Part shown: positions 1 through 2,149 of the stretch, piece after piece
Layout: each line of letters begins with the position of its first letter
Position numbering within the stretch: position 1 is the first letter of the stretch
Origin: Escherichia phage AnYang
Direction: 5' to 3' (one strand)
Sequence record: MK234886
Length of the DNA stretch: 64,000 nucleotides
Made by a program: the position numbers and the translations under genes
The notes under the pieces: model-generated
What the model was told of the DNA's origin: nothing
Seen by the model: only the letters and a program-made list of their open reading frames with translations
Database searches by the model: none

Positions 1-181
1 CAAAGGATTGAGACGTAAATCCAGGTTCTGGCCACTTTTTAATACCGTAGTTCAAACGACGAGTATAAGCCATATGATATACACGTTTCAGAAGCTCGTT
101 ATCCTTTTCACGAGCAATAATAGCTTCTTTAGCTTTAGTAGAATCAATAGCAGCAATTTCGTTTAAAATATCTAAAATCAT
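1..181 (-). CDS. 30: DNA ligase (gene 30), N-terminal fragment; ORF continues beyond window start
   Basis: Manual minus-strand translation MILDILNEIAAIDSTKAKEAIIAREKDNELLKRVYHMAYTRRLNYGIKKWPEPG matches the remembered T4 DNA ligase N-terminus; ATG at 181 preceded by GAGGTGA. Confidence 0.8.
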   Translation of the reverse strand, partial: MILDILNEIAAIDSTKAKEAIIAREKDNELLKRVYHMAYTRRLNYGIKKWPEPGFTSQSF

Positions 182-191
182 AATCACCTCA

Positions 192-470
192 TTAGTCATG
201 GATTCTATTATAAGCCACATCAGCCAAAAGCAAGTCTAATCGCTTATGATAAGAGAACACAAATCTCATTCGCCCGTCGGATTTGAACTTGGACATAAAG
301 TGGACATAAATGAATCCCTGTTCGACGCATTCACGCCAAACAGGATGGTCTTTAGCCGGATTTACATCAAATGAGTAATTATGATTCACATGACGAATAA
401 ACTGGTTTACATGACCATAATCCATTGTAGTGGTAGGACCATAGTCTGAAATTGTATGAACTACAAACAT
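192..470 (-). CDS. hypothetical protein; start moved to internal ATG at 470
   Basis: ORF track 192..521; the ATG at 470 lies just past the upstream stop (TAATATG junction), suggesting translational coupling. Confidence 0.35.
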   Translation of the reverse strand: MFVVHTISDYGPTTTMDYGHVNQFIRHVNHNYSFDVNPAKDHPVWRECVEQGFIYVHFMSKFKSDGRMRFVFSYHKRLDLLLADVAYNRIHD

Positions 471-471
471 A

Positions 472-1110
472 TTAACCTCGAGCAATCCATTCAACTGCGG
501 CATTATTACGAAGGGATTCAATTGCTGCGATATCGTCCCATGAATTAACCTTTACGGCCAAATTAGGTTTAAAGTCGCGTTCACCACGAGCTAACCAATA
601 AACTTGGATATCCATGAGAACATTAGATGCGGCATCACAGTGGTGAGCCAAATCATCAACATAAAACTTAATACGTTTACCGTACGTATTTTTAGCTCTT
701 ATGAAGAGGTCTTCTTTTGATTCTGAATGACCGCACATCAGAATCTCCTTGAATGCGCCAGGGAACAAAGCATTCAAATTGAATTGTCTATTCAGCAGAG
801 CATCAATTGAGTCGCCTAGCGCAGTCACGGCTACAAAATCGAAGTCTTTTTTGAGCTTGTTGATATGTTTTAATGCGTCCATGTAAGGAGACAGATAACG
901 AATAAAATCCGACTGATTATATTTCTCGATTAAACGAGCGCCCAATTCATTATCGCAATTAAACAGCTCGCCTGGAGATAAGAAACGTTCGTCCTGAATC
1001 ATATTCAAAATATGTTCTAAAGGCAAATTATATTTCTGTGCGAAATAAGGCAAGCCGGACTGCCAACTTAAACATACTCCATCGATATCTGTTAAGATAA
1101 CTGGTTTCAT
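472..1110 (-). CDS. HAD-superfamily hydrolase-like protein (putative phosphatase/nucleotidase)
   Basis: N-terminal ILTDIDGV (DxDG motif I), later T, K and YVDDL motifs; ATGA overlap with the upstream NADAR-like ORF. Confidence 0.45.
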   Translation of the reverse strand: MKPVILTDIDGVCLSWQSGLPYFAQKYNLPLEHILNMIQDERFLSPGELFNCDNELGARLIEKYNQSDFIRYLSPYMDALKHINKLKKDFDFVAVTALGDSIDALLNRQFNLNALFPGAFKEILMCGHSESKEDLFIRAKNTYGKRIKFYVDDLAHHCDAASNVLMDIQVYWLARGERDFKPNLAVKVNSWDDIAAIESLRNNAAVEWIARG

Positions 1111-1559
1111 AATAAATCTCTCAATTTGTTTAGGATGTCGATAAACTCTTTTTCAGTTAGTATTGTATCACATTCTGTAAGGTGGCTTGCCATCGAATGC
1201 TTTAAAACTTTACCTTTAGTGGATTGTAACGCATCGCGGAATCCTTTGTTCTGGAGCGCTGCTTCAAAATACGCACTTTCGTAAAGCTCTTTCCACGCTG
1301 TGGAGTATCTTGAAAACGGAGTTCCAAGCCAGAACAACGTGCCACGGTCCTGAGCCCTAGCATAAGCTCGTCCAGCTTTTTGCGCGTCCAACCCAGACAT
1401 CTCAAATATACGTCTTTGCTGTTCAACATTTTTCACCTTACACCCTTGGAGGAATCCTTCGAGTCCACCAAATTGGATACCGTCCATAACGAAAGGCCAT
1501 TTGGCAAAGTTACTTAATGCACATGATGGCCATGGGAAGTTGCTTCTGATTTCAATCAT
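1107..1559 (-). CDS. NADAR/YbiA-like (DUF1768) domain protein
   Basis: Motif LSNFAKWPFVMDGIQFGGLEGFLQGCK resembles the FSNFAAWP..DG..E..Q..K core of E. coli YbiA as I recall it; size 150 aa. Confidence 0.5.
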   Translation of the reverse strand: MIEIRSNFPWPSCALSNFAKWPFVMDGIQFGGLEGFLQGCKVKNVEQQRRIFEMSGLDAQKAGRAYARAQDRGTLFWLGTPFSRYSTAWKELYESAYFEAALQNKGFRDALQSTKGKVLKHSMASHLTECDTILTEKEFIDILNKLRDLL

Positions 1560-1750
1560 AGTCTTTTAAGGCTTTTGATAACTTCTAATTCAGACCCAAT
1601 ACGAACATCTTCAGTTCCATCGACCCATAGGACGGTGTAGGCTTCTTTAATAGTAACATTACCTAATTTAAAAGCAGGTAGAACCTTGGAAATCATACCA
1701 GGAATACCTATACCCTTTAATTGGACTGTTTGCGATAAGAATAGTTGCAT
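1556..1750 (-). CDS. hypothetical protein (64 aa)
   Basis: ORF track; start/stop overlaps with both neighbours. Confidence 0.3.
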   Translation of the reverse strand: MQLFLSQTVQLKGIGIPGMISKVLPAFKLGNVTIKEAYTVLWVDGTEDVRIGSELEVIKSLKRL

Positions 1751-2037
1751 TAGAACCTCATCTGAAAGCCGTGCGATTTAACATTGCCACCATAGATGTC
1801 AGAGGTATTGACTTCACGTGCAGCGCTTGGGTCGATATTGATGTCGTGGTTGAGCTTAGTGATTGCTAGGGTATCACGACCATTAACAGTACGGAATTCT
1901 ACAGGGCATACAACATCGGCATAAGCCTTAATAGATTCACGAGTAGGTTGTTTGTCGGCAGGAACGTCTTTACCTGCTTTAGAGAAAACAACTTCACAGA
2001 AATTTTTACGAGTATCGAAATAAGTGGTCATAAACAT
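1750..2037 (-). CDS. hypothetical protein; start moved to ATG at 2037
   Basis: The ORF-track N-terminal extension covers the promoter/SD region; ATG at 2037 follows a GAGGA Shine-Dalgarno. Confidence 0.4.
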   Translation of the reverse strand: MFMTTYFDTRKNFCEVVFSKAGKDVPADKQPTRESIKAYADVVCPVEFRTVNGRDTLAITKLNHDINIDPSAAREVNTSDIYGGNVKSHGFQMRF

Positions 2038-2068
2038 AATATTTTCCTCATCATTAGTTGATAAATCT

Positions 2069-2115: not shown

Positions 2116-2144
2116 GAAACAAAAATGGGACTCCGAAGAGTCCC
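2116..2144 (-). terminator. intrinsic terminator
   Basis: Minus strand: GGGACTC-TTCG-GAGTCCC hairpin followed by ATTTTTGTTT. Confidence 0.7.
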
Positions 2145-2149
2145 ATAAC

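What the first reader, a model, noticed from the sequence alone, without database searches (positions are those of the whole stretch)
472..1559. Translationally coupled NADAR/YbiA-like and HAD-like ORFs near DNA ligase
The 150-aa ORF contains LSNFAKWPFVMDGIQFGGLEGFLQGCK, resembling the YbiA/NADAR core. NADAR proteins have been reported as ADP-ribosyl hydrolases that remove guanine ADP-ribosylation made by DarT-type toxins, so a phage copy is a candidate counter-defence enzyme. It overlaps by ATGA with a HAD-type ORF (DIDGV, YVDDL), suggesting a two-enzyme nucleotide or ADP-ribose processing unit.
Basis: partly seen in the sequence, partly recalled or inferred. Interest (0 to 1): 0.6.

Follow-up and report, generated by a model that had tools for sequence, protein, structure and literature searches.

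The report
Known phage anti-DarT enzyme AdfN
The 150-aa gene is this T4-like phage's copy of adfN (T4 gene 30.3), an enzyme already shown to strip toxic ADP-ribose off phage DNA and defeat the bacterial DarTG1 defence. The neighbouring HAD-type phosphatase gene (30.2) is real but shows no sign of being its partner.

Summary
Two minus-strand ORFs, 1107-1559 (150 aa) and 472-1110 (212 aa), overlap by ATGA and lie upstream of 30.1 and DNA ligase in a T4-like phage (Dhakavirus, 96.6% nt identity to IME08).

The 150-aa protein is the ortholog of T4 gp30.3, 85% identical over its full length. T4 gp30.3 was renamed AdfN and shown by experiment to be a NADAR guanine-ADP-ribosyl-DNA glycohydrolase, necessary and sufficient against DarTG1 (Nat Commun 2025;16:1598; Toxins 2024;16:208). 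The window's copy keeps E34, K41 and H121 and an intact C-terminal helix. Its AlphaFold model matches only the three solved NADAR structures.

The 212-aa protein is a confident C1-capped HAD fold with all four catalytic motifs invariant. It belongs to an orphan, phage-restricted family and is weakly closest to 5'(3')-deoxyribonucleotidases.

The "two-enzyme unit" is not supported:
- In T4 transposon sequencing under DarTG1, 30.3 insertions vanish (log2FC -7.25) while 30.2 insertions are unaffected (-0.12).
- Only 15 of 80 distant gp30.3 loci have a 30.2 homolog within 4 kb.
- No NADAR-HAD fusions were seen among 10 multidomain relatives.
- ATGA overlaps occur at 12 of 102 junctions in this window.

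Verdict: already known, low interest.

The parts
1107..1559 (-). adfN (T4 gene 30.3 ortholog): 150-aa stand-alone NADAR core domain, guanine-ADP-ribosyl-DNA glycohydrolase
   Evidence: PF08010 E 3e-65, full length. 85% identity to T4 gp30.3/AdfN. AF2 pLDDT 96.5. Foldseek top hits are the three solved NADARs 2b3w, 8bau and 8bat. Family profile hits YbiA at E 1.8e-4.
1458..1460 (-). codon for catalytic Glu34 (T4 AdfN E36; E36A is inactive)
   Evidence: Alignment A1. E in 73 of 74 family members. Mutant data in PMC11257639. Aligns to the YbiA Glu.
1437..1439 (-). codon for catalytic Lys41 (T4 AdfN K43; K43A is inactive)
   Evidence: (66 K and 5 R of 74).
1197..1199 (-). codon for His121, the phage-NADAR replacement of the third catalytic Glu (YbiA family) or Asp (DarG1 family)
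   Evidence: H in 73 of 74 family members. His is described as the hallmark of gp30.3-type phage NADARs in PMC11125620, PMC11543638 and PMC12945103. That His121 is that position is inferred from its location just after the last beta-strand of the model; the YbiA alignment stops short of it.
1110..1154 (-). last 15 codons (residues 136-150), the C-terminal helix whose loss inactivates the RB69 allele; intact here
   Evidence: Helix 136-149 in the model. Full-length alignment to T4. RB69 truncation described in PMC11257639 and seen in L008.
472..1110 (-). gene 30.2 ortholog: 212-aa C1-capped HAD-superfamily phosphatase, substrate unknown
1075..1089 (-). HAD motif I, D8-I-D10-G-V12 (nucleophile Asp and general acid/base Asp)
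   Evidence: D8, D10 and G11 invariant in 65 homologs. Located at the end of strand 1 in the model.
652..657 (-). HAD motif IV, D152-D153 (Mg2+ ligands). Motif II T96 is at 823-825 and motif III K132 at 715-717
   Evidence: D152, D153 and K132 invariant, T96 at least 90%. Positions at strand ends or a helix start fit canonical HAD topology.
1107..1110 (-). ATGA stop/start overlap between adfN and 30.2
   Evidence: The same 4-nt overlap is in T4. It is a generic feature here: 12 of 102 junctions.
1556..1559 (-). ATGA overlap between 30.5 and adfN; also the junction of a clean deletion of gene 30.4 that created a new adfN start (MIEI... instead of MSELEI...)
   Evidence: DNA alignment A6 with IME08 and T4. 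tblastn mapping of T4 and IME08 genes.
1556..1750 (-). gene 30.5 homolog (64 aa), immediately upstream of adfN
   Evidence: 64% identity to T4 gp30.5, 89% to IME08 gp30.5. phrog_1690.
192..470 (-). gene 30.1 homolog (DUF3045, 92 aa from the ATG at 470), between 30.2 and ligase
   Evidence: PF11243 E 6e-16. 42% identity to T4 gp30.1. The 30.2 stop at 472-474 lies 1 nt before this ATG.
1..180 (-). 5' end of gene 30 (ATP-dependent DNA ligase), running off the window
   Evidence: Read: translation MILDILNEIAAIDSTKAKEAI... Ligase is annotated under the match in related phages.

Best explanation
The region is the conserved early-gene block 30.5-30.3-30.2-30.1-30 of a T4-like (Dhakavirus) phage.

Gene 30.3 is adfN. 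It encodes a minimal, core-only NADAR glycohydrolase that cleaves the N-glycosidic bond between ADP-ribose and guanine N2 on phage DNA. This reverses the modification installed by the DarT1 toxin of the host DarTG1 toxin-antitoxin defence, so phage DNA replication can proceed. In effect it is an orphan antitoxin carried by the phage. Shown for the T4 ortholog: necessity and sufficiency against DarTG1, in-vitro removal of G-ADPr from DNA, loss of function with E36A or K43A, and inactivity of the C-terminally truncated RB69 allele. Inferred for this copy, from 85% identity, conserved E34/K41/H121, an intact C-terminal helix and a NADAR fold: the same activity.

Gene 30.2 encodes an independent Mg2+-dependent HAD phosphatase with a helical C1 cap, which in this superfamily normally means a small-molecule phosphomonoester substrate. 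Its weakly closest relatives are 5'(3')-deoxyribonucleotidases, so the substrate is most plausibly a nucleotide. This is inferred with low confidence, and the gene is non-essential in T4.

The two genes are co-transcribed neighbours in a tightly packed early cluster. They are not a dedicated two-enzyme module.
For: Identity and orthology:
- PF08010 at 218.6 bits.
- 85% identity to T4 gp30.3 over the full length, in the same position between 30.4/30.5 and 30.2.

Published function of the ortholog:
- PMC11257639 and PMC11825919; in-vitro assays in PMC11125620 and PMC12945103.
- Independent genome-wide confirmation by HIDEN-SEQ: 30.3 log2FC -7.25, padj 0 under DarTG1.

NADAR membership tested here:
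- The family profile hits YbiA 2b3w at E 1.8e-4, with Glu and Lys aligned.
- 13 of 75 family members hit PF08719.
- An AF2 model at pLDDT 96.5 has as its only significant PDB matches 2b3w, 8bau and 8bat.
- E34, K41 and H121 are conserved in 73, 66(+5R) and 73 of 74 members.

gp30.2 as HAD:
- Invariant D8/D10/G11/K132/D152/D153 and near-invariant T96.
- Weak NT5C hits in 9 of 65 members and to PDB 2jao.

Independence of the two genes:
- T4 30.2 log2FC -0.12, p 0.61 over 71 TA sites under DarTG1.
- Purified AdfN alone is active in vitro.
- 65 of 80 distant gp30.3 loci have no 30.2 within 4 kb.
- In Aeromonas, Vibrio and Klebsiella phages the NADAR gene sits elsewhere, for example inside tRNA clusters.
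- No HAD fusion among 10 multidomain family members.
Against: - No experiment exists on this particular allele. Its N-terminus differs (MIEI instead of MSELEI) because of the 30.4 deletion, and 15% of residues differ from T4.
- The single sequence does not reach Pfam NADAR or the TIGR02464 threshold (E 0.035, 14.4 bits against a cut-off of 73.7).
- AdfN-T4 works fully only during T-even infection and an unknown phage co-factor has been proposed, so the mechanism is not completely understood.
- The HIDEN-SEQ DarTG1 comparison appears to rest on one library pair, judging from the 'R1' file names, and was done in T4, not in this phage.
Confidence: 0.88

Rival explanations
1. One reading: gp30.3 (NADAR) and gp30.2 (HAD) form a translationally coupled two-enzyme unit that jointly processes ADP-ribose or nucleotides. 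For example, the NADAR releases ADP-ribose and the HAD dephosphorylates a product, or gp30.2 is the unidentified T-even 'potentiating factor' that AdfN needs.
For: - ATGA overlap, conserved in T4.
- The two genes are adjacent in Tevenvirinae and some Acinetobacter phages, and always in the same order and strand when linked.
- Both are near-universal in T4-like phages (1509 and 1436 records).
- The published open question of a T-even-specific co-factor for AdfN.
- RB69, used for the 'sufficiency' test, carries its own intact 30.2, so that test did not exclude a helper.
Against: - T4 30.2 insertions are not depleted under DarTG1 (log2FC -0.12, p 0.61, 71 sites), whereas 30.3 is at -7.25.
- AdfN alone is active in vitro.
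- 65 of 80 distant gp30.3 loci have no 30.2 within 4 kb, and only about 5 are adjacent.
- No NADAR-HAD fusions were found.
- ATGA overlaps are generic (12 of 102 junctions).
- Free ADP-ribose is not an obvious HAD phosphomonoesterase substrate (general enzymology, inference).
Confidence: 0.06
2. gp30.3 acts mainly on soluble substrates rather than on DNA. These could be low-molecular-weight ADP-ribose derivatives used as immune signals, or riboflavin-pathway intermediates as for YbiA-type N-glycosidases. DarTG1 evasion would then be a side activity.
For: - A weak TIGR02464 (riboflavin-intermediate N-glycosidase) match.
- Iyer et al. 2022 predicted that phage NADARs mostly target soluble ADPr derivatives (PMC9503650).
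- AdfN-T4 does not detoxify DarT1 in uninfected cells.
Against: - Direct removal of ADPr from DNA in vitro, catalytic-dead controls, and a 4-5 log DarTG1 phenotype of adfN deletions.
- The genome-wide screen singles out 30.3 under DarTG1.
- The third catalytic residue is His rather than the YbiA-family Glu.
Confidence: 0.05
3. gp30.2 is a nucleic-acid end-healing 3'-phosphatase, like the HAD domain of T4 polynucleotide kinase/phosphatase. It would work with the adjacent DNA ligase rather than on free nucleotides.
For: - It lies two genes upstream of ligase.
Against: - Only 125-129 residues align, the core only, at 9-11% identity.
- gp30.2 has a roughly 70-residue helical C1 cap (residues about 16-86), which Pnkp-type capless HADs lack and which generally restricts access to small substrates (established HAD-superfamily knowledge).
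- The best full-length matches are small-molecule phosphatases and nucleotidases.
Confidence: 0.08
4. The window's adfN is a decayed or inactive allele, like RB69's, so the phage would be DarTG1-sensitive.
For: The 5' end has been remodelled by the 30.4 deletion. Truncated or split 30.3 fragments are common in databases (one search lists many 83-126-aa entries).
Against: - The full-length 150-aa ORF carries all conserved catalytic and structural residues and an intact C-terminal helix.
- Only residues 1-3 differ at the N-terminus.
- The new start keeps an ATGA coupling to 30.5.
Confidence: 0.03

Closest known systems
T4 AdfN (gp30.3), anti-DarT factor NADAR; Pfam PF08010 Phage_30_3
   Same: Ortholog: 85% identity over the full length and the same genomic slot upstream of 30.2-30.1-ligase. 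Same catalytic E/K/H, same core-only NADAR fold, intact C-terminal helix.
   Different: The N-terminal three residues differ because gene 30.4 is deleted, so translation is coupled to 30.5 instead. The host phage is a Dhakavirus rather than a Tequatrovirus. No direct assay of this allele exists.
DarG1-type NADAR antitoxins (E. coli C7, Geobacter/Trichlorobacter lovleyi; PDB 8bat)
   Same: Same fold and the same reaction, hydrolysis of guanine-N2-ADP-ribose on DNA. Conserved Glu and Lys.
   Different: DarG1 has an N-terminal extension and Asp as the third catalytic residue, and is encoded next to DarT1. The phage enzyme is core-only, uses His, and is an orphan. AdfN-T4 cannot replace DarG1 in uninfected cells.
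E. coli YbiA (PDB 2b3w; TIGR02464 / PF08719)
   Same: Best structural match (Foldseek E 5e-5, TMq 0.68) and the only PDB sequence-profile hit (E 1.8e-4). The shared motif is SNF...DG...E..Q..K.
   Different: 19% identity. YbiA has Glu at the third catalytic position and is linked to riboflavin-intermediate N-glycosidase activity and swarming. The window protein falls below the family cut-offs.
5'(3')-deoxyribonucleotidases of the NT5C family (human cdN/mdN, S. epidermidis 3bwv) and generic HAD-IA phosphatases, as the nearest relatives of gp30.2

Membership tests
AdfN / Phage_30_3 (PF08010) | Full-length match to PF08010 above the gathering score | tested here: met
   218.6 bits against a cut-off of 36; residues 10-148 cover model positions 2-138 of 138.
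AdfN / Phage_30_3 (PF08010) | Orthology to the characterised T4 protein (high identity, conserved locus) | tested here: met
   85% identity over the full length. Same order 30.5/30.4-30.3-30.2-30.1-30.
AdfN / Phage_30_3 (PF08010) | Catalytic Glu and Lys (T4 E36, K43) present | tested here: met
   Window E34 and K41. Mutant data in PMC11257639.
AdfN / Phage_30_3 (PF08010) | Intact C-terminal helix (the last 15 residues are missing in the inactive RB69 allele) | tested here: met
   Full-length C-terminus aligned to T4. Helix 136-149 in the model.
AdfN / Phage_30_3 (PF08010) | Guanine-ADPr DNA glycohydrolase activity and protection from DarTG1 | not testable with these tools
   Shown only for the T4 and T2 orthologs.
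NADAR superfamily (PF08719 and relatives) | Sequence-profile relationship to bona fide NADARs | tested here: met
   The single sequence has no PF08719 hit, and TIGR02464 is at E 0.035, below cut-off. The 75-sequence family profile hits YbiA at E 1.8e-4, and 13 of 75 members hit PF08719 (best 3.5e-6).
NADAR superfamily (PF08719 and relatives) | NADAR alpha+beta fold (helical core flanked by small beta-hairpins) | tested here: met
   AF2 pLDDT 96.5. The only Foldseek PDB hits with prob at least 0.99 are 2b3w, 8bau and 8bat.
NADAR superfamily (PF08719 and relatives) | [quoted passage not shown] | tested here: met
   H121 is conserved in 73 of 74 members, matching the phage-NADAR hallmark. Its spatial equivalence is inferred from sequence position, not from a superposition.
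HAD superfamily (gp30.2) | Rossmannoid HAD core fold with cap | tested here: met
HAD superfamily (gp30.2) | Four catalytic motifs: DxD, S/T, K, DD | tested here: met
   D8/D10/G11, K132 and D152/D153 invariant, T96 at least 90%, in 65 homologs. The positions fit the strand ends in the model.
HAD superfamily (gp30.2) | Match to a curated HAD Pfam model above threshold | tested here: not met
   NT5C at 13.4 bits against a cut-off of 24.8. Only sub-threshold Hydrolase, NT5C and HAD_2 hits in 12, 9 and 4 of 65 members.
NT5C 5'(3')-deoxyribonucleotidase family (gp30.2) | Specific sequence or structure affinity over other HAD-IA families | tested here: inconclusive
Proposed NADAR-HAD two-enzyme module | Gene neighbourhood conserved across the NADAR family | tested here: not met
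   A 30.2 homolog lies within 4 kb in 15 of 80 distant loci, and about 5 are adjacent. The genes are unlinked in L004, L005 and L007.
Proposed NADAR-HAD two-enzyme module | Both genes required for the same phenotype | tested here: not met
   Published T4 HIDEN-SEQ table under DarTG1: 30.3 at -7.25 (padj 0), 30.2 at -0.12 (p 0.61).
Proposed NADAR-HAD two-enzyme module | Domain fusions (Rosetta stone) | tested here: not met
   10 multidomain gp30.3-family proteins carry ASCH, LRR_5, LGT or unassigned regions, and none carries HAD. Only a sample of the 779 hits was examined.
Proposed NADAR-HAD two-enzyme module | Physical interaction of the two proteins | not tested

The most novel reading that the evidence does not exclude
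gp30.2 remains an uncharacterised, catalytically intact HAD phosphatase, conserved in more than 1400 T4-like phage genomes and dispensable in every condition tested so far. The most novel reading not excluded is that it cooperates with AdfN, or acts on phosphorylated ADP-ribose or nucleotide immune signals, under conditions the T4 screens did not probe: other DarT1 variants, other hosts, or redundancy with another phage factor. It could even be a redundant component of the unidentified T-even 'potentiating factor' that AdfN needs outside T-even infection.
Probability: 0.06. Interest if true: 0.55.

Novelty: already known. Interest (0 to 1): 0.15.

Why it matters
The finding correctly rediscovers, from raw sequence alone, a real phage counter-defence enzyme. 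That enzyme was characterised in 2023-2025 (AdfN, versus DarTG1), so this copy only adds another intact ortholog, in a Dhakavirus.

Two small points have some value.
- This phage has naturally lost gene 30.4 and re-coupled adfN to 30.5. That argues that the weaker 30.4 signal in the T4 DarTG1 transposon screen is polarity on adfN rather than a co-factor requirement.
- The partner gene 30.2 is a clearly active-looking HAD phosphatase, near-universal in T4-like phages, with no known substrate. It can now be deprioritised as AdfN's proposed potentiating factor.

Tried and rejected
- Direct single-sequence searches gave no usable result for gp30.3 against PDB, Pfam NADAR or PADLOC, and only a sub-threshold TIGR02464 hit. 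A family profile and a structure model were needed.
- The word-indexed homolog search for gp30.3 returned only 22 close relatives. The exhaustive representative search supplied the diversity.
It was rebuilt as A5.
- Profile search of gp30.2 against PDB sequences gave only noise-level hits. The fold searches were decisive for superfamily but not for substrate.
- No paper in the library mentions 'gp30.2'.
- gp30.2 was considered as AdfN's co-factor and rejected on HIDEN-SEQ data and synteny.
- gp30.2 was considered as a Pnkp-like end-healing phosphatase and judged unlikely because of its C1 cap.
- The internal 30.3' ORF (1202-1429) was considered as a conserved overlapping gene. It is open in window, T4 and IME08 but broken in RB69 and in distant relatives, and 9% of synonymous shuffles give an ORF as long, so the evidence is weak.
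- Promoter and terminator scans found nothing separating 30.3 from 30.2.
Full report
**Observation**

ORF 1107..1559 encodes 150 aa and contains LSNFAKWPFVMDGIQFGGLEGFLQGCK at residues 15-41. ORF 472..1110 encodes 212 aa and contains DIDGV and YVDDL. The two overlap by ATGA at 1107-1110.

The window is a T4-like phage. The first 4.5 kb are 96.6% identical to Escherichia phage IME08 (Straboviridae, Tevenvirinae, Dhakavirus). In the direction of transcription the gene order is 30.6, 30.5, 30.3, 30.2, 30.1, then gene 30 (DNA ligase), whose ATG is at position 180 and which runs off the window. "Near DNA ligase" is therefore correct.

**What the 150-aa ORF is**

It is a full-length, very strong match to Pfam PF08010 "Bacteriophage protein GP30.3" (218.6 bits, cut-off 36). 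It is 85% identical over its whole length to T4 gp30.3.

The literature settles the function of that ortholog.
- Schuller et al. 2023 (PMC11543638) showed that NADARs reverse guanine ADP-ribosylation made by DarT1, and noted a phage NADAR group in which a catalytic Glu is replaced by His.
- Cihlova et al. 2024 (PMC11125620) named these "gp30.3 proteins" and showed that the T4 enzyme hydrolyses G-ADPr DNA in vitro.
- Johannesman, Carlson and LeRoux (bioRxiv 2024, PMC11257639; Nat Commun 2025;16:1598, PMC11825919) renamed gene 30.3 adfN, for anti-DarT factor NADAR. They showed it is necessary and sufficient for T2/T4 resistance to DarTG1, and that E36A and K43A kill it. They also showed that RB69 is DarTG1-sensitive because a frameshift removes the last 15 residues.
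- An independent genome-wide transposon screen in T4 (HIDEN-SEQ, bioRxiv 10.1101/2025.11.20.689424) found 30.3 insertions lost under DarTG1.
- A 2026 paper adds that the T4 enzyme removes G-ADPr but not C-ADPr and consists of the NADAR core only (PMC12945103).

**Tests on the window's own copy**

- T4 E36 and K43 correspond to window E34 and K41, and both are present.
- In a 74-sequence alignment of diverse family members taken from an exhaustive search of 1.84 billion representatives (779 hits), the following are near-invariant, and the window has all of them: N17 (74/74), S16 (73), E34 (73), K41 (66 K, 5 R), R84 (72), H121 (73).
- The C-terminus is full length, unlike RB69.
- The single sequence does not hit Pfam NADAR, and reaches only E 0.035 against TIGR02464.
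- The family profile, however, hits E. coli YbiA (PDB 2b3w) at E 1.8e-4 with the Glu and Lys aligned. In addition, 13 of 75 members individually hit PF08719.
- An AlphaFold2 model (pLDDT 96.5, pTM 0.90) has exactly three credible PDB neighbours: YbiA 2b3w, Phytophthora NADAR with ADP-ribose 8bau, and Geobacter DarG1-type NADAR 8bat. Every other hit has probability 0.05 or lower.

It is simply already known.

**What the 212-aa ORF is**

It is the ortholog of T4 gene 30.2: 72-74% identical over residues 1-194. T4 carries an extra C-terminal tail of about 70 aa. It belongs to phrog_420 (unknown function) and to no Pfam family above threshold. NT5C scores 13.4 bits against a cut-off of 24.8.

In 65 homologs, D8, D10, G11, K132, D152 and D153 are invariant and T96 is nearly so. 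These are the four HAD motifs. The AlphaFold2 model is confident (pLDDT 94.8) and puts each motif at the canonical strand end or helix start. A helical C1 cap of about 70 residues is inserted after motif I.

The conclusion is an active-looking Mg2+-dependent phosphatase acting on a small molecule, possibly a nucleotide. The substrate is unknown. No paper in the library mentions gp30.2. T4 30.2 is non-essential on E. coli K-12.

**Is it a two-enzyme unit?**

Four independent lines say no.

1. *Genetics.* In the T4 HIDEN-SEQ table for control versus DarTG1, 30.3 has log2FC -7.25 (padj 0). Gene 30.2, with 71 TA sites and about 250 reads per site in both conditions, has log2FC -0.12 (p 0.61). The only other significant gene is the upstream 30.4 (-1.79, padj 0.014).
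2. *Biochemistry.* Purified AdfN alone removes ADPr from DNA.
3. *Synteny.* The pair is adjacent in Tevenvirinae (T4, IME08, RB69) and in an Acinetobacter phage. It is separated by three small ORFs in Klebsiella K14-2, and unlinked in Aeromonas Riv-10, Vibrio D479 and Klebsiella Roth16. In 80 IMG/VR loci carrying distant gp30.3 homologs (35-46% identity), a 30.2 homolog lies within 4 kb in only 15, and directly adjacent in about 5.
4. *Fusions.* Ten multidomain members of the gp30.3 family carry ASCH, BspA-LRR, LGT or unassigned regions, never HAD.

The ATGA overlap itself is generic. It occurs at 12 of 102 minus-strand junctions in this window, and 33 of 102 junctions have gaps of 10 nt or less. 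The 30.5/30.3 junction is also ATGA.

One caveat is worth stating. The Nat Commun paper reports that AdfN-T4 works fully only in T-even infection, that DNA modification is not the reason, and that an unknown T-even "potentiating factor" is likely. RB69, used for the sufficiency test, has its own 30.2. The HIDEN-SEQ result makes 30.2 an unlikely sole candidate, but redundancy is not excluded.

**A local peculiarity**

Relative to IME08 and T4, this phage has a clean deletion of the whole 30.4 gene. The window also lacks 30.7 and 30.8. The deletion joins the end of 30.5 to about codon 4 of adfN and creates a new ATG overlapping the 30.5 stop, so the protein starts MIEI... instead of MSELEI.... 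An intact adfN thus exists naturally without 30.4. This suggests that the modest 30.4 signal in the T4 DarTG1 screen reflects polarity on adfN rather than a co-factor role. That is an inference.

**Mechanism, stated plainly**

Shown in T4 and inferred here: on infection of a DarTG1 host, DarT1 ADP-ribosylates guanine N2 in phage DNA and blocks replication. The early protein AdfN hydrolyses the ribose-guanine bond using Glu34 and Lys41 (T4 E36 and K43), with His121 in place of the third acidic residue. This releases ADP-ribose and restores the template. It does not bind DarT1 and does not act on thymine-ADPr (DarTG2) or cytidine-ADPr.

gp30.2 most likely acts separately, as a small-molecule (possibly nucleotide) phosphatase in the early metabolic programme.

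**Verdict**

The feature is already known and of low interest, apart from the still-orphan gp30.2.

Noticed in passing
window 1556-1559 and 1500-1800 (compare L001 3058-3270 and L002 4759-4965): Gene 30.4 is cleanly deleted relative to IME08 and T4, and 30.7 and 30.8 are also absent from the whole 64-kb window. The deletion creates a new adfN start codon coupled to 30.5. T4 30.4 is the only other significant DarTG1 hit in HIDEN-SEQ (log2FC -1.79), which this natural deletion suggests is a polar effect.
   Followed up: yes
window 1202-1429 (-): The 75-aa internal out-of-frame ORF 30.3' annotated in T4 is also open here and in IME08 (55% aa identity to T4). It is interrupted in RB69 and not conserved in distant relatives, and 9% of synonymous-codon shuffles give an alternative-frame ORF at least as long. 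Evidence for a real overlapping gene is weak.
   Followed up: partly
window 2125-2146 (-) and 2036-2064 (-): A strong terminator-like hairpin (ATGGGACTCTTCGGAGTCCCAT followed by a T-run) lies just after 30.9. A sigma-70-like promoter match lies just before 30.6. This is where T4 carries 30.7 and 30.8, and it may delimit the transcription unit that includes adfN.
   Followed up: no
window 192-521 (-): The mechanically listed 109-aa TTG ORF is gene 30.1 (DUF3045). Its likely start is the ATG at 470, one base after the 30.2 stop, giving 92 aa.
   Followed up: partly
L007 3001-3450 (Klebsiella phage Roth16, PQ657790.1): The gp30.3/NADAR homolog (39% identity) is annotated there as 'anti-CBASS protein acb1'. 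This looks like a database misannotation.
   Followed up: no
L004 (Aeromonas phage Riv-10), L006 (Klebsiella K14-2), L007 (Klebsiella Roth16): In L004 and L007 the NADAR gene sits inside or beside the phage tRNA cluster. In L004 it directly follows a grcA-like (glycyl-radical cofactor) gene, and L006 carries a grcA gene about 1.4 kb upstream of it. In L004 and L007 it is not near 30.2 or ligase.
   Followed up: partly
proteins P0143, P0145, P0147, P0151, P0175, P0204, P0210: Metagenomic gp30.3-family domains occur in tandem copies (2-3 per protein) and fused to ASCH, BspA-type LRR and prolipoprotein diacylglyceryl transferase (LGT) domains. The family therefore reaches well beyond stand-alone phage proteins.
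   Followed up: partly
window 472-1110 versus L002 3475-4311: T4 gp30.2 (278 aa) has a C-terminal tail of about 70 aa rich in aromatic, Pro and Asn residues, which the window's 212-aa form lacks. Homologs fall into short (about 200-220 aa) and long (about 260-310 aa) classes.
   Followed up: no
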